Positions 1,860 to 57,608 of a DNA stretch of 64,000 nt are shown here, one piece after another. A model generated the notes under the pieces. The model worked only from the letters and a program-made list of their open reading frames with translations, was not told the DNA's origin and did not search any database. How positions within the stretch are numbered: the first letter of the stretch is position 1; every line of letters starts with the position of its first letter. Location: assembly GCA_001785355.1 (NCBI GenBank), contig MFTQ01000004.1, positions 3,612 through 67,611 of the forward strand, written 5' to 3'. Source of the stretch: Candidatus Nomurabacteria bacterium RIFCSPHIGHO2_01_FULL_41_71. GTDB taxonomy: Bacteria; Patescibacteriota; Minisyncoccia; Phycocordibacterales; UBA9973. The translations under genes and the position numbers were made by a program.

Positions 1860-3224
<1,365 letters not shown>

Positions 3225-9907: not shown

Positions 9908-10624
9908 ATGAAACTGATTCATCAAGTTCGGGCGGTAAAAAATAAAAGAGAAATTGCCAATATTAAAAAAGCTCAAAAATTAAGCGAATTATTACTTTAT
10001 GATGTTTTGAAAAAGTTAAAAACAGGAGTAACGGAATTCGACATTGCTCGATTTATAACTAATCGGTTTGTAAAATTAGGCGCGCCAATACTTTCTTTTC
10101 CGCCCATTGTGGCTTTCGGTAAAAATTCAGCCAATATTCATCATACCCCCGGCAAGACAAAACTCAGAAGGGGAGATTTCATTATGCTTGATTTTGGTTG
10201 CACAATAAATGGGTATTGTTCGGATATGACTCGCACTTATTTCTGGGGCGAACCGACAAAAAAACAAAAGAAAATTTATTTGGCTGTATTAGGAGCTCAA
10301 AATCGCGCTTTGAAACAAATCCAGAAAGGAGAGCGCAGGGCCAAAATCATAGACAGATTCGCGCGGGGTTTTCTGGCGAAAGTTTTCAAGAATAATTTTA
10401 AACACGGGCTTGGTCACGGAGTGGGAACCGTGATTCATGAATGGCCGAATTTCAAGCCAAAAAGCGAAGATATTATCCCTGCCGGATGCGTGATGACTGT
10501 CGAACCCGGGCTCTATTTTAAAGGTTTCGGCGGGGTGCGAATAGAAGATATGATTTTAATTGCAAAAAATGGCTACAAAAACCTAACTAACGTGCCAAAA
10601 GATATAAAAAGTGTTATACTGTAA
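9908..10624 (+). CDS. M24-family metallopeptidase (Xaa-Pro peptidase/MetAP-like catalytic domain only)
   Basis: DFGCTINGYCSDMTRT, HGLGHGVG and VEPGLY…GGVRIED form a pita-bread fold with the expected metal ligands. Confidence 0.65.
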   Translation: MKLIHQVRAVKNKREIANIKKAQKLSELLLYDVLKKLKTGVTEFDIARFITNRFVKLGAPILSFPPIVAFGKNSANIHHTPGKTKLRRGDFIMLDFGCTINGYCSDMTRTYFWGEPTKKQKKIYLAVLGAQNRALKQIQKGERRAKIIDRFARGFLAKVFKNNFKHGLGHGVGTVIHEWPNFKPKSEDIIPAGCVMTVEPGLYFKGFGGVRIEDMILIAKNGYKNLTNVPKDIKSVIL

Positions 10625-10628
10625 AGGC

Positions 10629-13031
10629 ATGGCGCGTAACCATTTTTTGCAAAAAAAAATTAGAATCGCTATTTTAACTGGAGGGCCTTCCCTGGAACGT
10701 GGAATTTCACTCAATTCCGCCCGCAGTGTGCTTGATCATCTGGGAAGTCTGGAGGTCGATGTCGTTCCAATCTATTTTGATGAAAAGAAAAAACCGTATA
10801 AAATATCCACTGCTCAGCTTTATTCCAACACCCCGAGCGATTTTGATTTTAAGCTTCGAAAAACGGGTAGATTCCTTTCCGAATCCGCCCTTATTCGCGT
10901 TTTAAAGAGTGTTGATATTGTTTTTCCCGCCATTCACGGCTCTTTTGGCGAAGATGGCGAAATTCAAAGTTTTCTTGAAAAACACAAAATACCTTTTATT
11001 GGAACCTCTTCCAAATCATGCAAAATAGCTTTTGATAAATTTCGAGCCAATGAATATATCCGCTCGCTTGGTTTTTATGCTCCGAATTCCATAGTGCTCA
11101 AAATTACCGATACCAAGAAAAATATTTTTAAAAAAATAACCGAATTTTGGAATAAAGAAAAAATAACTCGCGCCATAATAAAACCTTCTTCCGGAGGTTC
11201 GAGTATTGGTGTGTTTTCGGTAGAAAATATTTCCGATGCAGTGACAAGTGTTGAGACGCTTTTTCGGAAACGTATGGATACTCGGGTGGTGATGGAACCT
11301 TTTATGAAGGGCAAGGAATTCACGGTGATTATATTGGAAAACAGATTTAACCAAGCGGTGGCCATGATACCTTCGGAGATCGAGGTTGAATATGATGAAA
11401 ATCAATTTTTCGATTTTCGCAAAAAATATCTTCCTACTCGCCAAGTGACCTACCATTGTCCGCCGAGATTCGGGAATGAGATTATCGAAAAGATTCAGAT
11501 AGAAGCCGAACAGCTTTTTTCTGTTTTTGGTATGCGGGATTTTGCGCGTTTTGACGGGTTTTTCTTGCCGGACGGCAATGTATGGTTTTCGGATTTTAAT
11601 CCAATTTCTGGCATGGAACAAAACAGTTTTCTCTTTCAGCAATCTTCCAGAGTTGGTTTTTCTCACCGGGATTTATTTCGTTTCATCATAAATAACGCTT
11701 TTTTACGCAGGAAAATCAAAAAAACAATTAAAAATATTTCGCTGTCGGAAAAAAGAAAACCGGTAGCGGTGCTTTTTGGAGGAGAAACCGCGGAAAAACA
11801 AACATCTCTTATGAGCGGTACGAATGTCTGGCTTAAATTGCGGGGCTCCAAGCTTTATAAACCTCTTCCTTATCTTTTGGGAAAGGACAGAGAGGTCTGG
11901 GAATTGCCCTACTCGTATATTCTCAATCATACAGTGGAAGAAATAACAGAAAATGCCAAAAAGGCCCAAAAAGATTTTGCTAGGCTTCGTTTTCTTGTAG
12001 AAAAAGTAAAGCTTGGTCTCGCGCTAAAAAGGGGAGAAGTCACGGAAGAATTTTTTATACCCAGAAAGCTTTCGATCGGAGATCTTATCAAACAGCATAA
12101 ATTTATTTTTCTCGGCTTGCATGGAGGGATAGGAGAAGATGGAACTATCCAAAAAATACTTGAAGAAAAAAAAGTGAAATTCAACGGATCCGGAAGCGTT
12201 GCCTCAAAACTCTGCATGGACAAGTGGGCGACAAGCGAGACCATAGCGGAAGCTCATATTCCGGGCGTAAGCGTAGCCAAACATTTTTTACTCCGTCAGG
12301 GCGATATCGCCGAAATTATTAAAACAAAACAACAAAATAAATACTGGAATATGCTTTTGCAAAAGCTTGGCACAAGAACATTGATTGTCAAGCCTCGAGG
12401 AGATGGATGTTCGGCCGGAGTGGTAAGGCTCCAGAATTCAAAAGATTTATTTGCTTATCTTTCTTTAATTAGAAAAAAAATTCTGATGGTCCCGCCTGGG
12501 ACTTTTACCAGACAAAAAACTCCCGTAAATATGCCCGAGAACCCCTCCGATATAATTTTTGAATCTTTTATTGAAACAGATAAACTGAAAACAGTCGGGG
12601 GCGAAATTGTCTATGTCAGACGAAGCGGATATTTGGAAATAACGATAGGGGTGCTGGAAAAAGACGGCAGGCTAGAGGTTCTCTCCCCCTCTATTACTAT
12701 TGCTGAATCGGTAATTCTTGGCGTGGAGGAGAAGTTTCAAGGAGGCACGGGGGTAAATATTACTCCTCCACCGAAAGAAATAATTTCTCAAAAAAATTTA
12801 AATAAAGTCAAAAAACAAATTGAACAGGTGCTAAAAACGCTCAAAGTTCGAGGATATGCCAGAATCGATGTCTTTGTCCAAATAGCCACAGGGAATATAA
12901 TAGTGATAGAGGTCAATACCTTACCCGGACTTACTCCCTCGACTGTGTTTTACCACCAAGCTCTTGCGGAGAATTTTCCGATTCAACCCATTCAATTATT
13001 GGAAAAAATTATAAAAAATGCCGGCTATTGA
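10629..13031 (+). CDS. ddl: tandem fusion of two D-alanine--D-alanine ligase-like ATP-grasp modules
   Basis: The N-terminal half has IAILTGGPSLERGISLNSA…ARFDGFF…NPISGME. The C-terminal half has VAVLFGGETAEKQTSL…ARIDVFV…EVNTLPGLTPSTVF. ATG 10629 is chosen because an AAGG lies 4 nt upstream. Confidence 0.75.
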   Translation: MARNHFLQKKIRIAILTGGPSLERGISLNSARSVLDHLGSLEVDVVPIYFDEKKKPYKISTAQLYSNTPSDFDFKLRKTGRFLSESALIRVLKSVDIVFPAIHGSFGEDGEIQSFLEKHKIPFIGTSSKSCKIAFDKFRANEYIRSLGFYAPNSIVLKITDTKKNIFKKITEFWNKEKITRAIIKPSSGGSSIGVFSVENISDAVTSVETLFRKRMDTRVVMEPFMKGKEFTVIILENRFNQAVAMIPSEIEVEYDENQFFDFRKKYLPTRQVTYHCPPRFGNEIIEKIQIEAEQLFSVFGMRDFARFDGFFLPDGNVWFSDFNPISGMEQNSFLFQQSSRVGFSHRDLFRFIINNAFLRRKIKKTIKNISLSEKRKPVAVLFGGETAEKQTSLMSGTNVWLKLRGSKLYKPLPYLLGKDREVWELPYSYILNHTVEEITENAKKAQKDFARLRFLVEKVKLGLALKRGEVTEEFFIPRKLSIGDLIKQHKFIFLGLHGGIGEDGTIQKILEEKKVKFNGSGSVASKLCMDKWATSETIAEAHIPGVSVAKHFLLRQGDIAEIIKTKQQNKYWNMLLQKLGTRTLIVKPRGDGCSAGVVRLQNSKDLFAYLSLIRKKILMVPPGTFTRQKTPVNMPENPSDIIFESFIETDKLKTVGGEIVYVRRSGYLEITIGVLEKDGRLEVLSPSITIAESVILGVEEKFQGGTGVNITPPPKEIISQKNLNKVKKQIEQVLKTLKVRGYARIDVFVQIATGNIIVIEVNTLPGLTPSTVFYHQALAENFPIQPIQLLEKIIKNAGY

Positions 13032-13848
13032 AGAAAAAAGAATAAGTAAAAAAATAAATACCAGACCGATAGGAGTATTTGATTCCGGAGTCGGCGGGCT
13101 CTCCGTGCTTCTCAAATTAAAACGCCTGCTCCCAAAAGAAAATTTTGTTTTTCTTGCGGATCAGTTGTATGTGCCCTATGGAGAGAAAAATAAAAAGGAG
13201 CTTGTAAATCGAGTATATAAAATCACCGACTACCTACGGAAGCGCCATGATATCAAAATGATGGTAGTGGCTTGCAATACCGCTACCTGCGCGGCCATTG
13301 GGGAGTTACGAAACAAATATTCGCTTCCGATAGTGGGTACCGTGCCGGCGATTAAAAAAGCGGCAGAAAATACCAAGACAAAAAAAATAGCTGTTATTTC
13401 CACCCCTTCCACTTCCAAAAGTCTTGCTTTGCAAAAACTTATTAAGGATTATTGCCAAGGAATTAAAGTGTTGAATATAGGATGCAAAGATTTGGAAGAT
13501 GCGGTGGAACGCGGAGAGCTTATGGGTGGAGAGGTTCGCAGATTGCTTTTTAAATATTTGGATAGAATTAAAAATTCAAAAATTGACCAGCTTGTCTTGG
13601 GTTGCACTCATTATCCTTTTCTTAAGCAAGCAATAGTGAAAATAGTGGGTCCGGGGGTGAATCTTTTGGACGGCGGGGAAGGAATTGCCAGACATGCCAA
13701 ATCTCTCTTATCTAATTATCTGATGGAAAATAATGCGGAGAAAAAAGAAAAAATAATCTATTTAACCACAGGAGATCCGAAAAAATTTTCAAAAATAGCA
13801 AGCAAACTTATGAAAGAAAAAATTAAATCAAGGAAAGTTGCTTTTTAA
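13018..13848 (+). CDS. murI: glutamate racemase
   Basis: IGVFDSGVGGLSVL, VVACNTAT and GCTHYPFL. Confidence 0.85.
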   Translation: MPAIEEKRISKKINTRPIGVFDSGVGGLSVLLKLKRLLPKENFVFLADQLYVPYGEKNKKELVNRVYKITDYLRKRHDIKMMVVACNTATCAAIGELRNKYSLPIVGTVPAIKKAAENTKTKKIAVISTPSTSKSLALQKLIKDYCQGIKVLNIGCKDLEDAVERGELMGGEVRRLLFKYLDRIKNSKIDQLVLGCTHYPFLKQAIVKIVGPGVNLLDGGEGIARHAKSLLSNYLMENNAEKKEKIIYLTTGDPKKFSKIASKLMKEKIKSRKVAF

Positions 13849-14318: not shown

Positions 14319-17300
14319 ATGAAAATGGAGTCGCCAGTTTTTACAGAAAGGTCTAAAAGGTCAAAAGAACCTTTGGAACCACACGATATTCCCTCGGCTA
14401 TGAGCCAGATTAAAGAGGGACAAGAACAAACTCCTGACCAAGAAAGAATCTTGATTGATATACAAACCTATCTTGATGCAGCTCATGATATTTTTGAAGA
14501 TATAGAAACTAAAAGACCAATATTACCAGACTTACCCGAAAGCCCTAGCGCAGAAGTGCCGCTTGATTTCTCTGAACTTTCTCGGCAGTTGAAATCTAAA
14601 TTAGCTCAATTAGACAAAATGACTTCTAGAAGTTTTGGAGCACAACATAGGCTAAGCGAAGCTGGTCATAGAAATAGACGAAGAATAGAAAAAGTAGAAG
14701 ACCCTGTGGATGAATATTCCAAATGGTCGAGTACCTTGGAAAGTCAGTATTCAAATGTAAATTCCCAAATTAAACCTCTCGAAGCCGCATTAGTTCTACA
14801 TCGAGAATGCCAAGAATTAGGTAAAGAATATAAAACTATAATAAGCAGAAGATTTTCGGTGCCTGAGAAAGATTTAAGAAATCAGATAGATAAATTACTA
14901 GAAGAGTGCCTTTCACAAATAAGAGCTTTAGGAAGAAATCCTTTAAAATACACCGAGAAGCTAGCATTAAAAAGAAAGTGTGCTGAATTTATTGATATCA
15001 CACACAAAGTATATTTGATTGAAAATCTTTTTCCCGAAATAAGACATTCAGGATATAACTATGCTCTTAGTTGGAAAGATGGTTTAAAATATGACATATC
15101 GATACCCGTTGGCCATCTGTACGAACAAGTAGGTGTGAATTTACGTTTAAAAATCAATCAGTTAAAAACTTTAATCGCAGAAAGCAAAAAAAAAGAAACA
15201 GACGCAATTTCTCCGAAAGATTTAGCAATTCTTAAAGGAGATTTTTTTACAAAATATGTCCTTCCTCACATTTCCAATCTTCCTCCAGATATTCAAGCCG
15301 AAATATTATCCGAATATAATGAAAAAGGAACTGTTTACTTAAATCGATATGGTGTAGAAGACAGAAATGCCGCGGAAAGAATATCTTATGCTAGAATGAA
15401 TGAAAAAATAGAAGACAGTTTTAAATCGCTTGCTGATTTGCTTCGTAATGGAGATCCTGTCGGTGAAGCTTATAAATTGATTAAGCAAGAATTACCGAAG
15501 TTAATGGAAGAGCGTCCTTTGAAATATGATTTTGATGATATTTCTCGAACTCGACTTGAAAGTCCTATAATGAGAGCGGTCAAAGAATTACCTCGGCTGA
15601 AAGTTTTTATGGAAAGCCATGTGTTCCTTAATGCTACACCCGAAGAGCGAGAGAGGTTTCTAGAAAATGCCAGAAGTTTGATAAGTGAATATCTAAGTCA
15701 AGGAAAAATTATTGAGCCTACATCTCTAGCGGATAAATTATTATCACATCCAAACCCCGCAATCGCTCTAGAAATCATAGATTCTAGCTCCAATGAAAGC
15801 CGTAGTAGAAGCAACGAAGCAATACTTTTTATTTTTCAGCTTTTTCGGGAAAGTTCGGTAGAATCTGAAAGAAGTATTTTATCGAATATGCTTCATCGGT
15901 TCACCAATGACATAACTACCTATCAAGATCAGATTGTTGAAATCTTGCCCAGCCAAAGTAAAAGTATATATATTTTAGGCAGAGAGCTACTAATGAAACT
16001 GGCCACTCAAAATATGCCTATACCGCCTTTGTTATGGGAGCGAATGGAATCATATTTGGAAGATACGGTTGAACATATGGAAAAGGAAAAGGATTATAAG
16101 ATTCTAGTTCCTATTCTTAACGAAATCGCCAACGGAAGTGAAGCAGGTAATAGATATTTTGCCAACGAAGCGCTCATGTTGGCTATATATAGACATTTAG
16201 GTAAGGCTAATTTTATGCTTCCTGACGGATTGTTATTCATTAAAGATTCTAAAAACATCAATCTTATTATCGAGGGTTATAGAAAATATTTTGGTATGCA
16301 AAGCATCGATTTACCAGATAGCGAAAAATTCCAACTTGCTTTTCAAAAAGGATTGACCATTACTCAGCTATTTTCTCATTATGACAATGATGTAGAGAGT
16401 TTCTTTGACGATAAATTATTTCAAAAACTTTATGAATATCCGGAACTTGAGAAGCTTCTGACTGATCTTATTAGTCGCATTCAAACATTAAGCGATAGAA
16501 CTATTATTTCTCGAATTTTTTATTCTGTTCTACCATTCCTTCTAGAGACAGCATTCGCCGTCGATTCCAAAGAAGGTGAAACCGAATTTACGGCTCGTCT
16601 GAATAGAATATCAGAGTATTATGAAAAAGTTCTAGAAAAAACTAAGGAAGAAAAAAGTGCTCTTCAATTTTACTTGGGCGATAGTGCTTGGGAAGTAATA
16701 AAATTTCATCCACATCCAACCGATCTTCTTCTAGAATTTCCCGAACAAGCTCCGCTTTTATTTAAGGAAGAGCAAAGAGGACTTCAGAATCTCATATCTT
16801 CGAATTTTAATGTGCTTATAAAGGATAAGACGGATATGATTTTTCTAAATCAACTTGTTGGTAGATTTGGAGGAAATGCTCCCCAGCTAATAACAGACTA
16901 TCTTCAATGTTTAAAAGAAGGCGCGCTCACATTGGACGAAAAAGGATTAGTCGAAGAATTTCTTGGAAAATTTAGAGTTCTTTCGCCTGCCATTATAAAT
17001 GGTTATCGAGAAGCAAAAGCATCGCATACAGAGGAAGTTTTCATTGCTGGTTTAGAATCGATTGCCGAGCATGCTACTGGGCAAGGTAATCCAACTGAAA
17101 CACAACGACAGTCTCCATTTTATAAAGATGTTTTAAGGGCCATTTATCAAAACAATTCCGGACAATGGACTACTTTCGAGAAGAATGAGAGCTGTAAAGA
17201 CAGGTCAGCGGATTTACAAGGCTTCAAAATAAAAGAACGTTATGAAATCGATCTTCTGGCGGCTGGAGATATTAAAATGAAGCCAGGAGCAGAATTAGAT

Positions 17301-18521
17301 CGGAAAGGAATGGCGCAACTTGAAGAAGGAGTTACTTATATAGCAGACGAATTTAAGGCAGCTAATTTTGATCCGGAAATAGTTAAGAAAAAGGTCAATG
17401 ACCGTATCGAAGAAGTCTTCAATTTATTTACTGGAAGCGAAGTATTAAAAGATCTTGATGTAACGTCACTGACGCTTGAGCAAAAATTATTTATTATTTT
17501 ATCAGAAACAACTTACGGAACACCTCCAATTGAACCCAGAGAAGTTAAAAAACTTCTTTTTGAATACGAATTTGCTAACTTCGAAGATATTCGGGAATAC
17601 ATTCAAGGTACAAACGATAGAGTAGCAACTGCTCAAAATCGAGATTATGCTCTCTTGTGCGAATTCCATAGTCTTTTTGCCGACAGAATCAAAGAAATCA
17701 ACCGCCGACTGATTACGGCCGGATGGGAAAATACCGAGATTGCTAAAAAAATGCCGGCATATTTTGCGCAATTATCAAAAAAACGTGGAGACGCCGCAAG
17801 GGTAGAAAAAATAAATAAATTACAAATTGGAAAACTCGGCTTGAATGATACATTTTTGAAACAAATGAAAAGAGTGTTGAATAAAAAAGCAGGCACCAAT
17901 TATTCTGACGAACAAGTACGGCAAATTATTGCTAGATATGAAAGAATGACATCTGGATTGACAGAAACTAGTACATCTACCAAAGGAAGAACTCGCGAAT
18001 TTGCCGGTCAATTACGCGGGCAAAAAGAGAAAACCAGAAAAGCATTAGAGTTACTAGACGGCAAAAAACTAAATCCGGAAGAATTCCGTTTGGGCCATTT
18101 AGATTTCAATCAATATCTTGATGCCGAAAATGCAATTGGAAAAGGAACGTACAACGATGAACAATTTGCTTCATACACACTTCAACAATTTATCGGTATT
18201 TTTACCGAAGAACGAGAATTTGTTGAGGGAGAACTTGATAAATTTATGACTTCTTCCGGGAAAAATCGAGCGCGGCTTAGTGGTTACATTTCCAAATCTC
18301 CTGAGACTGCTCACGCCCGTATGGTTGGTGGAGTATGCGTTTCCGGAGATAATCCAAATCGAGGAGAAAAAAACATGTGGGATATGGAAAATTATTTTCA
18401 GTTAGTTCTTCAAGATCCAGAAACTAAACGCTGCCAGGGTATAGTATTGCTCCATCATTTCGAAGAGAACGGCCAGAAAATTTTAACTGCAGCTTTTAAT
18501 CCCTATGGCAAATGGATTTGA
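14319..18521 (+). CDS. 1400-aa orphan hypothetical protein, probably cytoplasmic
   Basis: One uninterrupted ORF. By eye it has no signal peptide or TM segment and no Walker A or HExxH motif. The sequence is rich in helix-favouring and acidic residues. Confidence 0.7.
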   Translation: MKMESPVFTERSKRSKEPLEPHDIPSAMSQIKEGQEQTPDQERILIDIQTYLDAAHDIFEDIETKRPILPDLPESPSAEVPLDFSELSRQLKSKLAQLDKMTSRSFGAQHRLSEAGHRNRRRIEKVEDPVDEYSKWSSTLESQYSNVNSQIKPLEAALVLHRECQELGKEYKTIISRRFSVPEKDLRNQIDKLLEECLSQIRALGRNPLKYTEKLALKRKCAEFIDITHKVYLIENLFPEIRHSGYNYALSWKDGLKYDISIPVGHLYEQVGVNLRLKINQLKTLIAESKKKETDAISPKDLAILKGDFFTKYVLPHISNLPPDIQAEILSEYNEKGTVYLNRYGVEDRNAAERISYARMNEKIEDSFKSLADLLRNGDPVGEAYKLIKQELPKLMEERPLKYDFDDISRTRLESPIMRAVKELPRLKVFMESHVFLNATPEERERFLENARSLISEYLSQGKIIEPTSLADKLLSHPNPAIALEIIDSSSNESRSRSNEAILFIFQLFRESSVESERSILSNMLHRFTNDITTYQDQIVEILPSQSKSIYILGRELLMKLATQNMPIPPLLWERMESYLEDTVEHMEKEKDYKILVPILNEIANGSEAGNRYFANEALMLAIYRHLGKANFMLPDGLLFIKDSKNINLIIEGYRKYFGMQSIDLPDSEKFQLAFQKGLTITQLFSHYDNDVESFFDDKLFQKLYEYPELEKLLTDLISRIQTLSDRTIISRIFYSVLPFLLETAFAVDSKEGETEFTARLNRISEYYEKVLEKTKEEKSALQFYLGDSAWEVIKFHPHPTDLLLEFPEQAPLLFKEEQRGLQNLISSNFNVLIKDKTDMIFLNQLVGRFGGNAPQLITDYLQCLKEGALTLDEKGLVEEFLGKFRVLSPAIINGYREAKASHTEEVFIAGLESIAEHATGQGNPTETQRQSPFYKDVLRAIYQNNSGQWTTFEKNESCKDRSADLQGFKIKERYEIDLLAAGDIKMKPGAELDRKGMAQLEEGVTYIADEFKAANFDPEIVKKKVNDRIEEVFNLFTGSEVLKDLDVTSLTLEQKLFIILSETTYGTPPIEPREVKKLLFEYEFANFEDIREYIQGTNDRVATAQNRDYALLCEFHSLFADRIKEINRRLITAGWENTEIAKKMPAYFAQLSKKRGDAARVEKINKLQIGKLGLNDTFLKQMKRVLNKKAGTNYSDEQVRQIIARYERMTSGLTETSTSTKGRTREFAGQLRGQKEKTRKALELLDGKKLNPEEFRLGHLDFNQYLDAENAIGKGTYNDEQFASYTLQQFIGIFTEEREFVEGELDKFMTSSGKNRARLSGYISKSPETAHARMVGGVCVSGDNPNRGEKNMWDMENYFQLVLQDPETKRCQGIVLLHHFEENGQKILTAAFNPYGKWI

Positions 18522-41863: not shown

Positions 41864-43018
41864 ATGAATATGAAAAATTTATATAAAATATTACTGGCTG
41901 GAACGATGGCTTTAATCGCGATTCCGATGTTTGCTTTAGCGGCGGAATTTAAAGCGGGGGAGCAAGTTTCGCTTTCTTCCGAAACGCGCATAGAAGGTGA
42001 TTTATATATGGCTGGAGGGAATACAACCAGCGCCGGAGATGTCCGGGGCGATCTTTTTGTCGTCGGCGGATCAGTCTTGATTTCCGGACCGGTGGCTGGA
42101 GATGTGGCGACGGGAGGAGGCAATGTCACCATACTCGGCGATATTGCGGATGATCTCCGCGCTGGAGGCGGAACTATTGTCGTGCAAGGCCGAGTGCGGG
42201 GAGATGTTCTGATAGGTGGGGGGCAAATTAATCTTTTAGGTAAGCTAATAAGCGGGGATGCGGTGGTTGCGGGAGGTATGGTTAGAGTTGATTCAATAAT
42301 CGGAGGAGATCTAAAATTTATCGGCGGAGAAATATATTTGAATTCCTCGGTAGCTAAAAATGTAAATATTAAAGCTGACAAGGTAACCCTCGGCCCCAAG
42401 GCCGATATTGGAGGAGATTTCACTTATGAAGCAAAAGAGCTGGCTGTAATGGAAAAAGGAGCCGTTGTTCGAGGAGAAACAAATTTTAAAGAAAAAAACG
42501 TTAAGGACACAACTGAGGGTCAATTCCAAGCCAGACTTGTCGCTTTATTTACATTTTGGTTTATCGCTAAATTCCTGATGTTTTTAATCGCAGGACTTCT
42601 TCTTGGATTGATTTTCCGTCGATACAGCCGGGAATTGGTGGAGAAAGCCACGGCAAACCCCCTTCGTGAATTTGGTCGCGGAGTGATCGCTTTCATTGTC
42701 CTACCTGTTTTATCTTTAATTCTTCTTGCTACTGTGGTGGGTATTCCATTAGGAATTCTTGGAATTATATCTTTTCTGGCCTTAACTATCTTTGCCGTTA
42801 TCACCACACCCATATTCTTGGGATCAGTTATTTATAAATGGGTATCAAAAAATACGCACCATGAAATAAATTGGAAAACGATTCTTTTCGGCATTGTCGT
42901 GTATTTCATGCTTGGTTTTATTCCTATCCTCGGATGGATCGCCATATTTATTTCTATGATGATCACAATTGGCTCCGCGCTTAGTATTAAGTGGACCATT
43001 GTAAAAGAATGGAGATAA
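41864..43018 (+). CDS. secreted beta-helical (bactofilin-like repeat) protein with a C-terminal multi-TM domain
   Basis: Signal peptide, repeated GDV/GG-V-x-G units and four C-terminal TM helices. Confidence 0.45.
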   Translation: MNMKNLYKILLAGTMALIAIPMFALAAEFKAGEQVSLSSETRIEGDLYMAGGNTTSAGDVRGDLFVVGGSVLISGPVAGDVATGGGNVTILGDIADDLRAGGGTIVVQGRVRGDVLIGGGQINLLGKLISGDAVVAGGMVRVDSIIGGDLKFIGGEIYLNSSVAKNVNIKADKVTLGPKADIGGDFTYEAKELAVMEKGAVVRGETNFKEKNVKDTTEGQFQARLVALFTFWFIAKFLMFLIAGLLLGLIFRRYSRELVEKATANPLREFGRGVIAFIVLPVLSLILLATVVGIPLGILGIISFLALTIFAVITTPIFLGSVIYKWVSKNTHHEINWKTILFGIVVYFMLGFIPILGWIAIFISMMITIGSALSIKWTIVKEWR

Positions 43019-43027
43019 AATCCGGAA

Positions 43028-44608
43028 TTGATAAATTATATGATCGATAATTTGAAAAATCTTTGGATAAAATTAATTAAAAAAGTAAAAAATCAGCCAA
43101 AAAATAAAAAAATACTTTACGGATCAATCTTTTTGGTTCTGGTTTTTGCGAGTTATAAAATTTTCGCGAGAAACGACGGCGATGGCATAACCACAGAAAA
43201 AGTAATACGCGGAGATTTGGCGGAAACCGTCTTGGCGACAGGGCAAATAGTTTCTTCCGCGAATTTCGATCTGTCTTTTTATAAAAGCGGTACGGTCCGA
43301 AACGTTCGCGTTTCCGTGAGCGACAAGGTGAATGAAGGAGCAATATTGGCGACTCTTGATCAGGGTAAAGAACTTGCCGCTCTCACTTCCGCTCGAGGAG
43401 CGGAAGCCGCCGCCCGCGCAAAGTATCAGAAAATTTTAGACGGATCTTCTAGTGAAGAAATAATGCTCGCTGAAGTGGCGCTTTTAAACGCAAAAAATGA
43501 TTTTGAACGAGTTAAATCCCAGCAAGAAATTTTAACCCAAAATGCTTATAAAGATCTATTAAATTCTACTCCTGAAGCAAGGCCTACTTCTACTTCCAGT
43601 TCGGGGAACTATATTGCTCCCGTAATATCCGGTAATTATTCTAAAGATATAGAAGGCGATATTATTGTTTCCCTTTATCAGTCCGGCACTGGCCAGGCTT
43701 TTGGTTTAAGGGGATTAACGCAGGGCGAAGGTATAGTTGCTTCCATTACCGCTCAACCTTTGGGAGATTCCGGATTATATATCAGCTTCTCCGGAGTGGA
43801 TGTAAATAACGTAAAAGAATGGACTATCTCAATTCCGAATAAAAAAGCATCTGATTATCAAACAAACTGGAACGCGTACCAAGAAGCTTTAGAAACAAAA
43901 AATTTAGCTATAGGGAACGCTGAAGCGTTGATAAACCAAAGAAAAGCTGAATTATCCATTAAACAATCTTCAGCCACACCCGCCGATTTGGCGTTGGCAG
44001 AAGCCGATATTTTATCGGCAAGAGGACAATTGGAGAATGCCAGGGCTGATTTTGAATATACTATTATTCGAGCTCCGGTTGCGGGAACCATTACCAGAGT
44101 GGATATAAAACCGGGCGAACTGGCGCAATCCTCTAAAGCGGTAATTGCCCTGGAGGATGTGGATAATTTATTCATTGAAGTTCCTATTAACGAATCCGAT
44201 ATAACTTATCTGAAAGTCGGCCAAAACGCCGATATAACCTTTGACGCTTTTGGGGAAAGTCGAAAATTCACGGGAGTAGTCGCTCATATCGATCCGAGTG
44301 CCGTTACTGAAGACGGAATAGTAAATTATAAGATAAAAGTTTACTTGGGCGACCAGAACCCCGATATCCGCATAGGAATGAATACCAATGTTAAAATCCT
44401 GGCCGGAGAAGTAAAAAATGCGCTGATCATTCCGTTCGTGGCTATTTTTGAGCGAGAAGGAAAGTCATTCGCGCAAGTGTTTTCCGAAAGCGGAAAATTT
44501 GAAGAACGGGAAATAATAACCGGTTTTCGGGGAGAAAATAATATGGTAGAAATAATATCCGGACTTAGCCTGGGAGAGGAAGTAGCGCTTGAAAAAAATC
44601 CAAAATAA
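43028..44608 (+). CDS. efflux periplasmic adaptor (HlyD/MacA family)
   Basis: N-terminal TM, a coiled-coil and YTIIRAPVAGTITRVDIKPGE. Confidence 0.75.
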   Translation: MINYMIDNLKNLWIKLIKKVKNQPKNKKILYGSIFLVLVFASYKIFARNDGDGITTEKVIRGDLAETVLATGQIVSSANFDLSFYKSGTVRNVRVSVSDKVNEGAILATLDQGKELAALTSARGAEAAARAKYQKILDGSSSEEIMLAEVALLNAKNDFERVKSQQEILTQNAYKDLLNSTPEARPTSTSSSGNYIAPVISGNYSKDIEGDIIVSLYQSGTGQAFGLRGLTQGEGIVASITAQPLGDSGLYISFSGVDVNNVKEWTISIPNKKASDYQTNWNAYQEALETKNLAIGNAEALINQRKAELSIKQSSATPADLALAEADILSARGQLENARADFEYTIIRAPVAGTITRVDIKPGELAQSSKAVIALEDVDNLFIEVPINESDITYLKVGQNADITFDAFGESRKFTGVVAHIDPSAVTEDGIVNYKIKVYLGDQNPDIRIGMNTNVKILAGEVKNALIIPFVAIFEREGKSFAQVFSESGKFEEREIITGFRGENNMVEIISGLSLGEEVALEKNPK

Positions 44609-44610
44609 AA

Positions 44611-45888
44611 ATGGACAGAAAGGAAAAAACAGAGAATTCTTTTTCGCAGAATTTAAAAGTGGGCTGGTTTTTGGCCTCGCGCGATCTTCGACATGCCAAC
44701 ATATGGACTACCACCCTTATCGTCTTCGTAATGACACTTACATTTCTGAATCTGATCATCGTATCCGGGATTTTAATCGGTCTTATTCAGGGATCGGAAG
44801 ATGCCCAAAAAAAATACGCCATCGGAGATATCGTCATTTCGCCTTTCTTGAATCGCTCCGTCATCGAACAGACTCCGAAAATTTCCGAAATAATAAAAAC
44901 CGTTCCCGGTTATAAAAATCATACAATTAGATTTACCGGTGCAGCTCGAGTCGAATCAAACTACAGGGACACCATCAGACCCGGAGATAAGCGCGATGGC
45001 GTGGGCGCCGCGCTTTTGGGTATTTCTCCGGCGGGAGAAGAAAAATTTTCCGGTATTTCCAAATTCATAATACGGGGAAATTATCTGGAAGAAACCGATC
45101 AAGACAGCGTGCTTATAGGCAAAAATCTTCTTTACGAATTTACACCCATTGAAGCTCCCGGTTTTCAAACCTTAAAAAACATAGAAGTGGGCCAGAGGGT
45201 GAAAGTCAAAGCCGATAATATTTCGAAAGAATATTTCATTAAAGGAATAGTATCCAGCAAGGTTGATGAATTCGATACTTCCGTAATAGCGCTCGACAGC
45301 GAAGTAAGAAAACTAACCGGTCGATCTGATCTAAACGCGGGAACTATAGCCATTCAACTCTTGCCCGGATCCGATCCAATATTGGCCAGAAATTTTTTGC
45401 TTCGAAACGGGGTTGGTTCTTATGCCCGGGTGCAAACAGCCGAAGAAGCTTTCCCGAAATTTTTAAAAGATATTAAGGCCACTTTCGGTATTTTAGGATC
45501 CGCAATTTCCGGTATTGGATTAGTAGTGGCTTCGATTACTATTTTTATTGTGATTTTTGTAAATGCCATCACCAGACGCAGATACATAGGCATCCTGAAA
45601 GGTATAGGAATAAATCAAAAAGCCATATTATTTTCCTACATATATCAAGCGTTCTTTTATGCCGCCTTGGGAATAATTCTTGGCATGATTTTAATTTTCT
45701 TTTTAATCAAGCCGTATTTTGCCGTCCACCCGATAAATTTCCCTTTCTCGGACGGAATATTGGTGGCTACGGTTCCTTCCGCCATGCTTCGAGCTTGGAT
45801 TTTACTCGCTACCACCATCATCGCTGGATACATACCGGCGCGAATCGTAATCCGCCAAAATACTCTAAATGCCATTTTAGGCAGATAA
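44611..45888 (+). CDS. ABC transporter permease, FtsX/MacB-type
   Basis: An N-terminal TM, a large periplasmic domain and a C-terminal FtsX-like 3-TM module. Confidence 0.7.
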   Translation: MDRKEKTENSFSQNLKVGWFLASRDLRHANIWTTTLIVFVMTLTFLNLIIVSGILIGLIQGSEDAQKKYAIGDIVISPFLNRSVIEQTPKISEIIKTVPGYKNHTIRFTGAARVESNYRDTIRPGDKRDGVGAALLGISPAGEEKFSGISKFIIRGNYLEETDQDSVLIGKNLLYEFTPIEAPGFQTLKNIEVGQRVKVKADNISKEYFIKGIVSSKVDEFDTSVIALDSEVRKLTGRSDLNAGTIAIQLLPGSDPILARNFLLRNGVGSYARVQTAEEAFPKFLKDIKATFGILGSAISGIGLVVASITIFIVIFVNAITRRRYIGILKGIGINQKAILFSYIYQAFFYAALGIILGMILIFFLIKPYFAVHPINFPFSDGILVATVPSAMLRAWILLATTIIAGYIPARIVIRQNTLNAILGR

Positions 45889-46621: not shown

Positions 46622-48106
46622 ATGAATGAAAGATCCTCAAAATTTGCCCGATCGAAAAATCTGGGAGTGGGACTGACTTTTGATGATGTGCTTTTAGTGC
46701 CCGGCTATAGTGAGGTCTTGCCGAAAGAAGTGGAAACTAAAACCCTTCTGACAAAAAATATTTCCCTACATATACCTTTGATATCTGCCGCCATGGATAC
46801 GGTAACCGAAAGCGCGATGGCGATAGCTATTGCCGAAGAAGGAGGCATAGGTATCATTCATAAAAATCTCTCCTTGGCGGATCAGGCGAAGGAAGTGGAG
46901 AAAGTCAAACGCTATGAATCTGGACGCATTCTAAATCCTGTTACTCTTTTTGTCGGAGCAACGGTCGGAGACGCTTTTACCATACAGAAAAAATCCGGTT
47001 TCGGAGGATTTCCGGTCTTGGATAAAAAGGGTCTGCTGGTGGGTATTGTTACCAACCGCGACCTGCGTTTCCAAAAAAATGAATCTGCACCCATCGAGAA
47101 GATAATGACCACCAAATTAATTACCGGCGGACCCGACACTACCATAGAAGAAGCCAATAAGATTTTTAATAAATATGCCATAGAAAAACTTCCACTTGTC
47201 GACAAAAAAGGAAAACTTGCCGGAATGATTACTTATCGGGATATTGCAAAATCAAAAGAACATCCGAATGCCACCAAAGATCGTTTCGGCAGACTGAGGG
47301 TGGGAGCGGCAGTCGGAGTCGGCAGGGATGTGCTTGCGCAAGTGGAAATTTTAACAAAGAGCGAAGTAGACATAATCTGTGTGGATACGGCTCACGGACA
47401 TTCCAAGGGTGTGCTTGATGCGGTAAAGAAAATACGCGAAGCATATCCTAAACTTGATATTATCGCCGGAAATGTGGCAACAGGGGAAGCGGCTAAAGAT
47501 TTAATAAAAGCCGGAGCCAGCGCCATTAAGGTCGGAATCGGCCCCGGATCCATATGCACCACTCGCGTGGTTTCAGGCGTAGGCGTGCCCCAGCTCTCCG
47601 CCATACTTTCCGTTTATGAGATATGCAGAAAATATAATATTCCGGTTATTGCTGACGGAGGTATCAAGCATTCAGGAGATGTTGTCAAGGCTCTCTCTTT
47701 TGGGGCGGATGTAGTGATGGCTGGAAGTTTATTCGCCGGGACAGATGAGTCTCCAGGGGATACCATAGTTATGAATGACCAAAAATTTAAAAAGTATCGC
47801 GGTATGGGGTCGCTTGGAGCCATGCAACGCGGAAGCAAGGATAGATATTTTCAGGATGATCAATACGATCCAGCCAAGCTAGTGCCGGAGGGAGTCTCCG
47901 GCCATGTAGCCTACAAGGGAGCTCTTTCGGAAGTAATCCATCAATATATCGGAGGACTTCGAGCAGGCATGGGATATTTGGGCGCAAAAAATATTCTTAA
48001 ATTACGGAAAAGTTCATATTACACTATTACTTCGTCCGGACTTTCTGAAAGCCATATTCATGACATATTCATGGTAAGCCCAGCTCCTAACTACAAGAGA
48101 CGGTAG
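46622..48106 (+). CDS. guaB: IMP dehydrogenase
   Basis: A CBS pair and the catalytic [11 protein letters not shown]. Confidence 0.9.
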
Positions 48107-48119
48107 TTTCTTAATAAGA

Positions 48120-49508
48120 ATGAAAAAAAAGAAAAGATCAAAAATTACTCCGGTAATAGGTCTCCAGTGGGGAGATGAGGGCAAGGGCAAAGGTGTGGCG
48201 AGGATTGCTTCCAAGCTTTCAAAAAATGATTTAATAGTGAGATTTCAGGGTGGAAATAATGCCGGGCATACCATATGGCACAAAGGCAAACCCTATGTCT
48301 TCAAACTGATTCCTTCCGGGGTTTTTGGCAAAGCTCAAATACATTTAGGCGCCGGTATGGTTATTAATCCCGGAGCTCTGCTTCAAGAAACTAAAACTAT
48401 ACCGAAAAATATCTCCTTTTTAAATCGTATTTCTATTTCGCCACATGCTGTGCTGACCTTACCCACGCACATCCTACTTGATTCCGTTTCGGAACAAAAA
48501 AAAGGAAAGAAAAAAATAGGCTCGACTGGTAAAGGAATCTCGCCTTCTTATACCGATTTGATCATGCGGAAAGCGCTGAGAGTGGGGGATATTTTTCATA
48601 ATGATTTTAAGCAAAAATATGATAAACTTTCTTTGGAACATAAAAAAATGCTGAGTAAAATTTTTCAATATAAAGTAAAAAATAAAGAATTAAAAGAAAA
48701 TGAAGAAAAATTCTGGCATGGTATAAAATTTTTACGCAAACTCTCCGTTATAAATTCGGCTAAATTAACAGAGAGAACTTTAAAAAACGGTCGAAAAATA
48801 ATCGCGGAAGGAGCGCAGGGGACGTTGCTGGATCTCCGTTTCGGCAACTATCCATTCGTCACATCATCGCACACCATCGCCTCCGGTATAGGCACGGGAC
48901 TCGGTCTTGCGCCGTCCTCGATTGGTGGGTCTATCGGTATCTTTAAAGCTTATACCACGAAGGTGGGCGAAGGACCTTTCCCGACAGAGCTTGGTGGATT
49001 AAAATCAGCCGTTTGGTGCCGAGACAAAAATTTTAGCCATGAAAAAGAAAAATTTTACAATCTCGACCCGAACAGTAAAAACGAATTCGAGCAGGGTATA
49101 GCGCTTCGAAGGCTCGGCTTTGAAATCGGAGCAGTTACCGGCCGGTTACGAAGAACAGGCTGGCTCGATATTCCGCTTCTTAAATACGCCATAAATATCA
49201 ATAATGCCACCAAGCTGGTACTGACCAAGCTCGATGTTCTTAATGGATTTAAAATAATAAAAGTTTGCACGGGTTATATTATTAACAATAAAAAAACTGC
49301 GGAAATCCCATTTGATCTTTCCCGAGAAAATATAAAATGCGTTTATAAATCTTTCCCTGTTTGGAAAGGCAAGCTGTCTGATTACGGCGGGAAATTGCCG
49401 AAAGAGGCCCTTCGCTATGTCAAATTTTTAGAAAAAACGCTCCGCGCAGAAATAATTTATGTCGGAACGGGGGCAGAAGAACATCATGTAGTGGAGCGTT
49501 ATTGGTGA
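48120..49508 (+). CDS. purA: adenylosuccinate synthetase
   Basis: GLQWGDEGKGKGV and GTTGKGI. Confidence 0.9.
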   Translation: MKKKKRSKITPVIGLQWGDEGKGKGVARIASKLSKNDLIVRFQGGNNAGHTIWHKGKPYVFKLIPSGVFGKAQIHLGAGMVINPGALLQETKTIPKNISFLNRISISPHAVLTLPTHILLDSVSEQKKGKKKIGSTGKGISPSYTDLIMRKALRVGDIFHNDFKQKYDKLSLEHKKMLSKIFQYKVKNKELKENEEKFWHGIKFLRKLSVINSAKLTERTLKNGRKIIAEGAQGTLLDLRFGNYPFVTSSHTIASGIGTGLGLAPSSIGGSIGIFKAYTTKVGEGPFPTELGGLKSAVWCRDKNFSHEKEKFYNLDPNSKNEFEQGIALRRLGFEIGAVTGRLRRTGWLDIPLLKYAININNATKLVLTKLDVLNGFKIIKVCTGYIINNKKTAEIPFDLSRENIKCVYKSFPVWKGKLSDYGGKLPKEALRYVKFLEKTLRAEIIYVGTGAEEHHVVERYW

Positions 49509-49513
49509 TATTT

Positions 49514-50494: not shown

Positions 50495-50546
50495 TAAAAT
50501 TTAAAGATTATTTGTTTTTAATTCATCCATATTATACTATATCTCT

Positions 50547-54304: not shown

Positions 54305-54305
54305 T

Positions 54306-55718: not shown

Positions 55719-56250
55719 AAAAAAATTAGTACTGATGGTTCATGAGGGAGGTAGTCACACTAATTTAAAGACAATACGAAGGGCGGTTGATGCCGGTAAA
55801 ATTAATGCGGAAATTTCCGCGGTAGTTTCTGATAAAGAGAACGCGATACCGGTATTGGAGAAAATGTCCCCGGACTATATATGTCTCGCTGGTTGGAAGA
55901 AAATTATTCCTAAAAAAATTATAAAAGAATATAAGAACAAAATCTTAAATATACATCCGGGTTTAATTCCTGATACAGTCAACGAAAAAGTGAAAAATCC
56001 TGACGACACGGAAGCTTTGTGGAATAAAGAAATGTATGGTAATAAAGCCGTTCAGAATTTTTTAGATCGGAAAGCAACTTTTGCCGGCTCTTCTATTCAT
56101 TTTTTAACCCTTGACTTTGATTTTGGGCCGGTTTTAGGGAGAACTTTTGAAAAAATTCAAATTAATGATACTGTTGAATCTCTATATGCACGGCTCAAAA
56201 AAAAAGAAAATGAGTTATATGTGGAGATTTTAGAAAAATTAACTCAATGA
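55699..56250 (+). CDS. purN: phosphoribosylglycinamide formyltransferase
   Basis: NIHPGLIP motif, within the pur operon. Confidence 0.7.
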   Translation: MMSQTSKKKLVLMVHEGGSHTNLKTIRRAVDAGKINAEISAVVSDKENAIPVLEKMSPDYICLAGWKKIIPKKIIKEYKNKILNIHPGLIPDTVNEKVKNPDDTEALWNKEMYGNKAVQNFLDRKATFAGSSIHFLTLDFDFGPVLGRTFEKIQINDTVESLYARLKKKENELYVEILEKLTQ

Positions 56251-57599: not shown

Positions 57600-57608
57600 A
57601 ATAAACTT

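What the first reader, a model, noticed from the sequence alone, without database searches (positions are those of the whole stretch)
10629..13031. Tandem Ddl-Ddl fusion protein (806 aa) upstream of murI
Both halves carry full Ddl-like N-terminal (GG-x-S-x-E…S), central ATP-grasp and C-terminal (RIDFF-like, N-T-x-PG-(M/L)-T) signatures. A single-polypeptide double ligase is unusual. One module may have altered specificity (D-Ala-D-Ser or D-Ala-D-Lac type) or be catalytically dead and scaffolding.
Basis: partly seen in the sequence, partly recalled or inferred. Interest (0 to 1): 0.55.

Follow-up and report, generated by a model that had tools for sequence, protein, structure and literature searches.

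The report
Conserved two-module D-Ala-D-Ala ligase gene
This is a real gene encoding two different D-alanine–D-alanine ligase units in one protein; the design is widespread in uncultured bacteria and is the same family as the "double DDL" of green plants, so it is neither an artefact nor a rarity, but how the two units divide the work is still untested.

Summary
Window 10629–13031 (+) is one uninterrupted 800-aa ORF (806 aa from an upstream GTG). Each half on its own matches the Ddl N- and C-terminal domain models. It is not an assembly artefact: the same fusion, in the same module order, occurs in at least 582 species-level genomes, and 79 of 80 inspected loci carry it as one ORF. Hosts include Patescibacteria, TM6, Bdellovibrionota, Rickettsiales, Chlamydiia, Cytophagales and others. 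Green-algal DDL belongs to the same family, and plant DDL is described in the literature as a fusion of two DDL genes.

Neither module looks dead. Across 215 family members:
- Module 1 keeps the full catalytic set, including the E–S–Y triad, with one invariant Mg-ligand change (Glu→Asp).
- Module 2 keeps all ATP, Mg and catalytic residues but always has Phe for Tyr216 and Cys for Ser150.

Both modules evolve at the same rate and share one history. AlphaFold2 predicts one rigid body (pTM 0.85–0.89).

Context ties it to D-Ala-D-Ala supply for peptidoglycan: alr or murI immediately downstream, and natural fusions to MurF and Alr. It is a new bacterial member of a known kind. The conserved Tyr/Phe asymmetry is the part worth an experiment.

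The parts
10629..13031 (+). Whole tandem Ddl-Ddl gene (800 aa from ATG 10629; stop TGA at 13029-13031; an in-frame GTG at 10611 would give 806 aa)
   Evidence: Identical to the public 800-aa protein P0001.
10629..11708 (+). Module 1 (aa 1-360): Ddl with the canonical Glu23-Ser191-Tyr267 triad
   Evidence: Pfam and NCBIfam on half 1 alone. Best PDB relatives are S. mutans Ddl and Salmonella DdlA, about 113-120 bits. Residue conservation.
11391..11444 (+). Omega-loop (lid) of module 1, YDENQFFDFRKKYLPTRQ, with Lys266-Tyr267 (11424-11429) equivalent to DdlB K215-Y216
   Evidence: K and Y are invariant in 215/215. Low pLDDT in both models, as expected for a mobile lid.
11592..11600 (+). Mg2+-ligand motif of module 1, D322-F-N324. 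DdlB Glu270 is replaced by Asp; Asn272 is kept.
   Evidence: Asp in 214/215 family members, including algae.
11709..11756 (+). Inter-module linker RKIKKTIKNISLSEKR (aa 361-376)
   Evidence: coil between helix 346-360 and strand 377-384, placed confidently (block pLDDT about 86-92). In L022 this region carries the 11-nt duplication that splits the gene.
11757..13028 (+). Module 2 (aa 377-800): divergent Ddl with insertions and a Glu389-Cys594-Phe703 set in place of the triad
   Evidence: Only 42 bits to module 1.
11910..12062 (+). Helical insertion in the N-terminal domain of module 2 (aa 428-478, contains the family motif LNHTVEEI)
   Evidence: Alignment to DdlB. Helices 436-444 and 446-464 in both models. 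H434 and E437 are invariant in A3.
12408..12410 (+). Cys594 of module 2, at the position of DdlB Ser150
   Evidence: Cys in 210/215. The DGCS motif is also in algae and Cytophagales.
12474..12632 (+). Insertions in the central ATP-grasp domain of module 2 (aa 616-668), including an extra beta-hairpin
   Evidence: Alignment to DdlB. Strands 652-656 and 659-663.
12702..12758 (+). Omega-loop of module 2, AESVILGVEEKFQGGTGVN, with Lys702-Phe703 (12732-12737) equivalent to DdlB K215-Y216
   Evidence: L210, K215, F216, G219 and G221 equivalents are invariant in 215/215.
12909..12917 (+). Canonical Mg2+-ligand motif of module 2, E761-V-N763
13018..13848 (+). murI (glutamate racemase), overlapping the ligase gene by 14 nt; same operon
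   Evidence: (PF01177). The same arrangement is seen in L004.
9908..10624 (+). Upstream M24 metallopeptidase gene, whose stop lies 4 nt before the ligase ATG (operon context only)

Best explanation
The gene encodes this organism's D-alanine--D-alanine ligase for peptidoglycan precursor synthesis. It is built as two non-identical Ddl modules on one chain that pack into a single rigid body. Both modules are functional ATP-grasp ligases.
- Module 1 is a canonical Tyr-type dipeptide ligase. It has the Glu-Ser-Tyr triad, and its only catalytic change is a conservative Glu->Asp at one Mg ligand.
- Module 2 is an old, divergent paralogue. It keeps all ATP, Mg and transition-state residues, but its lid lacks the hydrogen-bond triad (Glu-Cys-Phe). 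It therefore probably works with different kinetics or a looser choice of second substrate, while still contributing D-Ala-D-Ala.

The product feeds MurF. The gene is co-transcribed with a D-amino-acid racemase: murI here, alr in many relatives.

Shown: the fusion, its conservation, the residue pattern, the gene context and the confident one-body model. Inferred: activity of each module, the product, and that the packing imitates the usual Ddl homodimer.
For: Real and conserved:
- One ORF.
- 120 close homologues of about 800 aa from independent assemblies.
- 283 cluster representatives with E<=1e-30 to half 2, almost all tandem with half 2 at the C-terminal end.
- At least 582 species genomes, and 79/80 loci with one ORF.

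Both modules constrained (215 proteins):
- Module 1 is invariant at the equivalents of E15, H63, K97, K144, S150, K215, Y216, R255, D257 and N272.
- Module 2 is invariant at E15, H63, K97, K144, E187, K215, R255, D257, E270 and N272, with F216 in 215/215 and C150 in 210/215.
- Pairwise identities of the two halves correlate (r=0.83) and have equal means (0.372 vs 0.370).

One body:
- AlphaFold2 pTM 0.85 with 49 sequences and 0.89 with 104 sequences.
- Only the two omega-loops have low confidence.

D-Ala-D-Ala/peptidoglycan role:
- alr lies immediately downstream in about 27 of 80 loci; murI does in the window and in L004.
- Natural fusions exist: Ddl-Ddl-MurF (P0146) and Ddl-Ddl-MurF-Alr (P0194).
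- The window also encodes MreB and a PBP transpeptidase.
- Green-algal DDL is in the same family and has the same asymmetric residues.
- Moss DDL knock-outs cannot dimerise D-Ala (PMC9954125).
- Moss precursors are ordinary pentapeptides (PMC9434261).
Against: - No enzyme of this family has had its two modules assayed separately. The plant literature says so explicitly.
- Each half alone falls below the TIGR01205 cut-off: 210.8 and 138.6 bits against 245.65.
- Module 2 lacks the triad whose loss is known to open Ddl to D-lactate, so its product may not be D-Ala-D-Ala.
- I could not check whether the genome also has a single-module ddl. There is none in the 64-kb window.
- I had no model coordinates, so the 'imitates the homodimer' step is untested.
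- Two residues of the canonical dimer interface (DdlB V88, A92) are replaced by Ser and Lys/Arg in both halves.
Confidence: 0.6

Rival explanations
1. A heterofunctional enzyme. Module 1 makes D-Ala-D-Ala. Module 2, with its Glu-Cys-Phe lid, makes a different product, such as D-Ala-D-lactate or another D-Ala-D-X. Cells with this enzyme would then have a second kind of stem-peptide terminus, and possibly intrinsic glycopeptide tolerance.
For: - Phe at the Tyr216 position is invariant (215/215) and Cys at the Ser150 position near-invariant (210/215).
- Y216F gives E. coli DdlB depsipeptide activity, and F258Y in L. reuteri Ddl drops the vancomycin MIC from >256 to 1.5 ug/ml (PMC3378904).
- The D-Ala2-site residues also differ between modules: DdlB S281/L282 correspond to S/F in module 1 and T/V in module 2.
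- The module 2 lid is extremely conserved and unlike any canonical Ddl.
Against: - Plant and algal members carry the same Phe/Cys module, yet moss precursors were reported as ordinary D-Ala-D-Ala pentapeptides.
- The D-Ala-D-Lac NCBIfam model scores 70.5 bits for half 2 against a cut-off of 550.
- No alr-independent partner (vanH- or vanX-like) was noticed next to the gene; the recurring neighbours are alr and murI.
- Fusion partners are MurF and Alr, the D-Ala-D-Ala route.
Confidence: 0.22
2. Only one module is catalytic. The other is a pseudo-enzyme that binds ATP or D-Ala and serves as a structural partner or regulator, standing in for the second subunit of the usual homodimer.
For: - Ddl normally works as a dimer (PMC6899670), so a fused partner could be kept for stability alone.
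- Module 2 is much more diverged from canonical Ddl (best PDB hit 67 bits against 120 for module 1) and carries insertions.
- Module 1 has a changed Mg ligand.
Against: - All catalytic, ATP and Mg residues are invariant in both modules across 215 proteins spanning bacteria and algae.
- Both omega-loops are highly conserved.
- The two modules have equal mean divergence.
A scaffold would be expected to lose these residues.
Confidence: 0.15
3. An artificial fusion of two adjacent ddl genes, created by a frameshift or assembly error in this window.
For: One of 80 related loci (L022) is split into two frames.
Against: - The ORF is continuous and identical to an independently deposited protein.
- Hundreds of independent assemblies have the same single ORF.
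- The L022 split is caused by an 11-nt direct duplication inside the linker.
- Eukaryotic algae and plants have the same fusion.
Confidence: 0.01

Closest known systems
[quoted passage not shown]
   Same: - Two Ddl modules on one chain, in the same order.
- Algal proteins are among the best matches of half 2 in 1.84 billion representatives (P0220, E=3e-76; Tetraselmis P0238 and P0245).
- The same diagnostic residues in each module: GSS / KY / DxN..SGM in module 1 and DGCS / EEKF / ExN..PG in module 2.
- Shared idiosyncratic motifs such as AQLYSNTPSDFDFKL and ISGMEQNSFLFQQ.
   Different: - The window protein is bacterial and compact (800 aa).
- It has no transit peptide, SAP domain or long low-complexity insertions.
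- It sits in an operon with murI.
- The plant proteins are known genetically (moss knock-out), but their modules have not been dissected either.
Canonical single-module D-alanine--D-alanine ligase (E. coli DdlB/DdlA, T. thermophilus, S. aureus Ddl; TIGR01205)
   Same: - Same three-domain ATP-grasp fold. Foldseek TM-score normalised to the target is 0.80-0.88, one module per PDB chain.
- Same catalytic residues.
- Same pathway context.
   Different: - Two modules on one chain instead of a homodimer.
- Module 1 has Asp for Glu270.
- Module 2 has Cys for Ser150, Phe for Tyr216 and three insertions.
- Each module alone scores below the TIGR01205 cut-off.
- No PDB chain covers both modules.
Phe-type Ddl of vancomycin-resistant lactic acid bacteria (Leuconostoc LmDdl2, L. 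reuteri Ddl), which are D-Ala-D-Lac ligases
   Same: Module 2 has Phe at the omega-loop position equivalent to DdlB Tyr216, the residue that controls dipeptide versus depsipeptide formation. LmDdl2 (1ehi) is a structural match.
   Different: - Those enzymes are single-module and keep the Ser (F258-E17-S186 in L. reuteri). Module 2 has Cys.
- The NCBIfam D_ala_D_lac model scores far below its cut-off.
- Sequence similarity to 1ehi is weak (E=4.8e-7).
Mur-pathway chimeras (Chlamydia MurC-Ddl, MurE-MurF, and others)
   Same: Fusion of peptidoglycan-precursor enzymes into one polypeptide. Relatives of the window protein extend this to Ddl-Ddl-MurF and Ddl-Ddl-MurF-Alr.
   Different: The partner here is a second, divergent Ddl. 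The 2023 survey of Mur chimeras does not list a Ddl-Ddl type.
VanG/VanC D-Ala:D-Ser ligases
   Same: Overall fold (VanG 4fu0). Half 1 shares Phe at the position of VanG Phe252 (F in 189/215).
   Different: - VanG Arg324 and Asp243 have no counterpart. Position 282 is Phe in module 1 and Val in module 2.
- VanG, VanC, VanE, VanL and VanN models all score far below their cut-offs.

Membership tests
D-alanine--D-alanine ligase family (Pfam PF01820 + PF07478; NCBIfam TIGR01205) | N-terminal Ddl domain plus C-terminal ATP-grasp Ddl domain | tested here: met
   both domains are found in each half scanned alone (E from 8.4e-24 to 3.7e-18), all above Pfam gathering scores.
D-alanine--D-alanine ligase family (Pfam PF01820 + PF07478; NCBIfam TIGR01205) | Score above the curated TIGR01205 cut-off (245.65 bits) | tested here: inconclusive
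   the whole protein scores 343.9 bits and passes, but that is the sum of two modules. Half 1 alone scores 210.8 and half 2 alone 138.6, both below the cut-off.
D-alanine--D-alanine ligase family (Pfam PF01820 + PF07478; NCBIfam TIGR01205) | Catalytic, ATP and Mg residues (DdlB E15, H63, K97, K144, K215, R255, D257, E270, N272) | tested here: met
   all are present and invariant in both modules. The single exception is Glu270->Asp in module 1, which is conservative and itself invariant.
D-alanine--D-alanine ligase family (Pfam PF01820 + PF07478; NCBIfam TIGR01205) | Glu15-Ser150-Tyr216 hydrogen-bond triad of dipeptide-specific ligases | tested here: inconclusive
   met in module 1 (E23-S191-Y267). 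Not met in module 2 (E389-C594-F703).
D-alanine--D-alanine ligase family (Pfam PF01820 + PF07478; NCBIfam TIGR01205) | ATP-dependent formation of D-Ala-D-Ala | not testable with these tools
   Only indirect support: alr, murI and MurF linkage and moss genetics from the literature.
Tandem (plant-type) DDL | Two Ddl modules in one polypeptide, in fixed order | tested here: met
Tandem (plant-type) DDL | Closer to eukaryotic tandem DDL than to single-module Ddl, module by module | tested here: met
   Half 2 against algal P0220 gives E=3e-76 (identity of P0220), compared with at best 1.5e-17 against any solved single-module Ddl. The module-specific substitutions are shared. Only algae were tested; no land-plant sequence was tested directly.
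D-Ala-D-Lac ligases (VanA/B/D type and LmDdl2 type) | Score above the NCBIfam D_ala_D_lac cut-off (550 bits) or VanA-type cut-offs | tested here: not met
   160.4 bits (whole protein), 96.3 (half 1), 70.5 (half 2).
D-Ala-D-Lac ligases (VanA/B/D type and LmDdl2 type) | Phe instead of Tyr at the omega-loop specificity position (LmDdl2 type) | tested here: met
   module 2 only, Phe in 215/215.
D-Ala-D-Ser ligases (VanG/VanC type) | Signature residues Asp243, Phe252, Arg324 (VanG numbering) | tested here: not met
   alignment to 4fu0: half 1 has Ser, Phe and Phe at these positions; half 2 has Leu at the 252 equivalent and Val at the 324 equivalent. VanG model: 158 bits (half 1) against a cut-off of 495.
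MurC-Ddl type Mur chimeras | A Mur ligase domain fused to Ddl | tested here: not met
   no Mur ligase domain in the window protein. NF011171 scores 171.9 bits against a cut-off of 1015. Some relatives do carry MurF.

The most novel reading that the evidence does not exclude
The two modules are not redundant. Module 2, whose Glu-Cys-Phe active-site lid is invariant from Patescibacteria to green algae, would catalyse a different ligation (a depsipeptide such as D-Ala-D-Lac, or another D-Ala-D-X). Alternatively it would act as a substrate-gated partner controlling module 1. Tandem DDL would then be a two-function enzyme, which would explain why the fusion has been kept intact across bacteria and chloroplast-bearing eukaryotes.
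Probability: 0.25. Interest if true: 0.7.

Novelty: new member of a known kind. Interest (0 to 1): 0.4.

Why it matters
**Link to plant DDL.** DDL is one of only four peptidoglycan genes kept by all flowering plants, and its biochemical role there is still debated. The plant protein is large, carries a transit peptide and has never been taken apart module by module. This work shows that compact bacterial proteins of the same family exist in hundreds of genomes. It also shows that the two modules carry a fixed, asymmetric pair of active sites: Tyr/Ser/Asp-type in module 1 and Phe/Cys/Glu-type in module 2. That gives a simple experimental handle on the question.

**Annotation.** Many of these proteins are labelled 'hypothetical' or generic 'ATP-grasp'. 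NCBIfam returned only generic single-module Ddl models, and no tandem-specific model appeared among the listed hits.

**Cell-wall biology.** The result bears on how Patescibacteria and other small-genome bacteria build their wall, and on how they might respond to D-cycloserine or glycopeptides.

Tried and rejected
- **Assembly or frameshift artefact:** rejected. The one split locus, L022, has an 11-nt duplication in the linker.
- **Recent internal duplication:** rejected. The two halves share only 42 bits, less than either shares with canonical Ddl (up to 120 and 67 bits). Identity over DdlB-aligned columns is 0.248 between halves, against 0.286 and 0.283 to DdlB.
- **D-Ser-type reading:** I recalled that the VanC/VanG specificity Phe equals DdlB Tyr216. 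The alignment to VanG showed this is wrong: VanG keeps Tyr there, and its Phe252 aligns with DdlB Tyr210. I dropped that reading.
- **Second ddl, alr or murF in the window:** none found. The extra Ddl-like ORFs in L027 and L067 are an unrelated double ATP-grasp protein and a partial copy of half 2, not canonical ddl.
- **Canonical dimer-interface residues:** G70 and D96 are kept, while V88 and A92 are replaced in both halves. Inconclusive.
- **Geometry of the predicted inter-module contact:** model coordinates are not exposed, and Foldseek compares single chains only.
- **Cultured hosts:** a homologue search from the Bdellovibrionota member returned only uncultured lineages.
- **Literature on bacterial tandem Ddl:** searches found nothing. 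The Mur chimera survey does not list it.
- **Nearest bacterial relatives of the algal proteins:** the top hits were other unnamed, probably eukaryotic, sequences. The origin of plant DDL was not resolved.
Full report
**What is in the sequence.** One search lists a single ORF on the + strand, 10611..13031: 806 aa from a GTG, or 800 aa from the ATG at 10629. The 800-aa form is identical over its full length to a deposited protein, 'hypothetical protein A3D42_00115' of a Candidatus Nomurabacteria bacterium (RIFCSPHIGHO2_02_FULL_41; the name is cut off in the output) (P0001). The upstream M24 peptidase gene ends 4 nt before the ATG. murI begins 14 nt before the ligase stop codon (PF01177). The three genes form a tight operon.

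**Two Ddl modules.** Scanned separately, aa 1-374 and aa 375-800 each match both Ddl domain models:
- PF01820: 8.4e-24 and 7.7e-18.
- PF07478: 3.7e-28 and 3.7e-18.

In NCBIfam the generic TIGR01205 model scores 343.9 bits for the whole protein. Each half alone is below the cut-off of 245.65 (210.8 and 138.6 bits). All Van-type and D-Ala-D-Lac/D-Ser models are far below their cut-offs.

**Not an artefact and not rare.**
- The 120 best database hits are proteins of about 780-830 aa, 57-73% identical, from NCBI, JGI, ENA and Logan assemblies.
- Half 2 searched against 1.84 billion cluster representatives finds 283 with E<=1e-30. In nearly all of the best 150 the protein is 760-920 aa and the match lies in its C-terminal half.
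- The 80 best loci come from many Patescibacteria lineages. They also come from TM6, Chlamydiia, Bdellovibrionota, Rickettsiales, Micavibrio, Gamma- and Alphaproteobacteria, a Chloroflexota chromosome and a Verrucomicrobiota genome.
- In 79 of the 80 loci both halves lie in one ORF.
- The exception, L022, has an 11-nt direct duplication in the linker that shifts the frame.

**The architecture is already known in plants.** Tran et al. [quoted passage not shown] The window protein belongs to that same family:
- The green alga [Myrmecia] bisecta protein P0220, named D-alanine--D-alanine ligase by its source, matches half 2 at E=3e-76.
- Tetraselmis proteins P0238 and P0245 are also members.
- The algal sequences share idiosyncratic motifs with the window protein and the same module-specific residues.
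- A longer subgroup (about 840-920 aa) includes a Cytophagales protein that NCBI names D-alanine--D-alanine ligase (P0256).

A survey of natural Mur-pathway chimeras (PMC10214165) does not list a Ddl-Ddl type. Text searches for bacterial tandem Ddl found nothing.

**Anatomy of the two active sites.** I used E. coli DdlB (taken from NC_000913) as a ruler and 215 tandem proteins: 118 close homologues plus 97 representatives clustered at 50% identity.
- **Module 1** is invariant at the equivalents of E15, S19, H63, E68, K97, S150, S151, E187, K215, Y216, R255, D257 and N272, and nearly so at K144 (212/215). It keeps the Glu-Ser-Tyr triad. The second Mg ligand, Glu270, is Asp in 214/215, and Leu282 is Phe.
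- **Module 2** is invariant at E15, H63, E68, K97, K144, E187, K215, D257, N272 and P275, and invariant or nearly so at E180, R255 and E270. Ser150 is Cys (210/215), Tyr216 is Phe (215/215), Ser281 is Thr and Leu282 is Val or Cys.
- **Both omega-loops** are strongly conserved and differ from each other: (F/I)-F-D-(F/Y)-R-K-K-Y-L-P in module 1 and (I/V)-L-S-(V/L)-E-E-K-F-Q-G-G-T-G in module 2.

Pairwise identities of the two halves across 98 representatives correlate (r=0.83). Their means are equal, 0.372 and 0.370. The modules have therefore travelled together since the fusion, and neither has been released from selection. This argues against a dead scaffold module.

**Origin of the two modules.** Within the window protein the halves share only 42 bits over about 125 residues. 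Half 1 reaches about 120 bits with S. mutans Ddl, and half 2 reaches 67 bits with P. aeruginosa DdlA. There is no sign of a recent internal duplication. The fusion joins a fairly canonical Ddl to an old, divergent paralogue. That paralogue carries a helical insertion in its N-terminal domain and two insertions in its central domain.

**Structure.**
- AlphaFold2 with 49 sequences gave mean pLDDT 86.5 and pTM 0.85.
- With 104 more diverse sequences it gave pLDDT 89.7 and pTM 0.89, and all five models lay between 87 and 90.
- For an 800-residue chain of two similar-sized modules, such a pTM implies a confidently fixed mutual arrangement. This is my inference.
- The only low-confidence internal stretches are the two omega-loops, the mobile lids of Ddl.
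- Foldseek against the PDB returns only single-module Ddl, VanA, VanG and LmDdl2 chains, each covering one module (TM-score 0.34-0.39 normalised to the query, 0.80-0.88 normalised to the target). No tandem Ddl has been solved.

Ddl is recurrently dimeric in crystals (PMC6899670). A covalent pseudo-dimer is therefore the natural reading. I could not inspect coordinates, and two canonical interface residues are replaced in both halves. This step remains inferred.

**Function.** The context points consistently at the D-alanine branch of peptidoglycan synthesis.
- An alanine racemase gene follows the tandem gene directly, often overlapping its stop codon, in about 27 of 80 loci.
- murI follows it in the window and in L004.
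- Natural fusions exist: Ddl-Ddl-MurF (P0146), Ddl-Ddl-MurF-Alr (P0194), Ddl-Ddl-PASTA (P0234), Ddl-Ddl-aminotransferase (P0039) and GNAT-Ddl-Ddl (P0159).
- The window encodes MreB and a PBP transpeptidase. It has no second ddl, alr or murF within its 64 kb.
- In moss, loss of the orthologous gene abolishes D-Ala dimerisation and blocks chloroplast division (as summarised).
- Moss precursors are ordinary D-Ala-D-Ala pentapeptides.

**Module 2.** The Tyr216-Glu15-Ser150 triad controls dipeptide versus depsipeptide formation. Y216F gives E. coli DdlB depsipeptide activity. The reverse change, F258Y, in L. reuteri Ddl makes the cell vancomycin-sensitive (PMC3378904).

The evidence against a dedicated D-Ala-D-Lac role:
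- The same module occurs in plants, whose precursors look canonical.
- Similarity to D-Ala-D-Lac ligase models is very low.
- The gene neighbours and fusion partners belong to the D-Ala-D-Ala route.

A D-Ser-type role is not supported. By direct alignment, the VanG signature residues Arg324 and Asp243 are absent. That alignment also corrected my own recollection about which VanG Phe is the specificity residue.

**Verdict.** This is a real, strongly conserved gene for a two-module D-Ala-D-Ala ligase, a bacterial member of the tandem DDL family known from plants.
- The 'unusual fusion' and 'possible artefact' readings are not supported.
- The 'dead scaffold' reading is unlikely.
- The 'altered specificity of one module' reading remains open and testable.

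I rate it a new member of a known kind and of moderate interest. The points that appear not to have been described are the conserved asymmetric pair of active sites and the breadth of the bacterial distribution.

Noticed in passing
window 14319-18521 (+): A 1400-aa ORF directly downstream of murI with no Pfam match at E<=1e-5. Large and uncharacterised.
   Followed up: no
window 46622-61688 (+): A run of purine-synthesis genes: IMPDH, adenylosuccinate synthetase, a purF-like amidotransferase, GARS, AIR synthase-related, SAICAR synthetase and adenylosuccinate lyase. From general knowledge, Patescibacteria usually lack de novo nucleotide synthesis, so this may be worth a look.
   Followed up: no
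window 41864-45888 (+): A 384-aa ORF with no Pfam hit, followed by an HlyD-like membrane-fusion protein and an FtsX-like permease. This may be an efflux or secretion module.
   Followed up: no
P0194 (1638 aa, JGI metagenome) and P0146 (1262 aa): Single polypeptides that combine Ddl-Ddl with MurF and, in P0194, also alanine racemase. P0194 therefore carries three consecutive steps of the D-alanine branch on one chain.
   Followed up: partly
P0039 (1173 aa) and P0048 (1180 aa), 71% identical to the window protein: Ddl-Ddl fused to a class I/II aminotransferase domain (PF00155 precomputed for both; confirmed for P0039). This may be linked to alanine supply in genomes where alr is not adjacent.
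   Followed up: partly
P0234 (1244 aa) and P0159 (987 aa): Other fusions of the tandem ligase: to a C-terminal PASTA domain (P0234, which also has an apparent hydrophobic, possibly membrane-spanning stretch judged by eye) and to an N-terminal GNAT acetyltransferase (P0159).
   Followed up: no
L067 12241-13278 (Verrucomicrobiota, Candidatus Moanabacter): A partial extra copy of module 2 (central and C-terminal domains, with the GCS and EEKFQGGTG motifs) about 1 kb downstream of the intact tandem gene.
   Followed up: partly
L027 15065-17497 (Peregrinibacteria): A different 811-aa protein, which by eye looks like two ATP-grasp-like halves, lies 4 kb downstream of the tandem ddl. It is not the same family.
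   Followed up: no
L022 about 2957-3024: An 11-nt direct duplication (GGCAAACAATC) inside the inter-module linker puts the two modules in different frames. This is either a sequencing error or a natural split version of the gene.
   Followed up: partly
L038, L044, L051, L052, L058, L066, L079 and others: Outside Patescibacteria, the tandem gene turns up mostly in lineages labelled as predatory, intracellular or host-associated: Bdellovibrionota, Micavibrio, Rickettsiales, Chlamydiia, TM6 and Francisellaceae-labelled MAGs. The Bdellovibrionota protein's nearest relatives are Patescibacteria proteins at about 50% identity, which hints at horizontal spread.
   Followed up: partly
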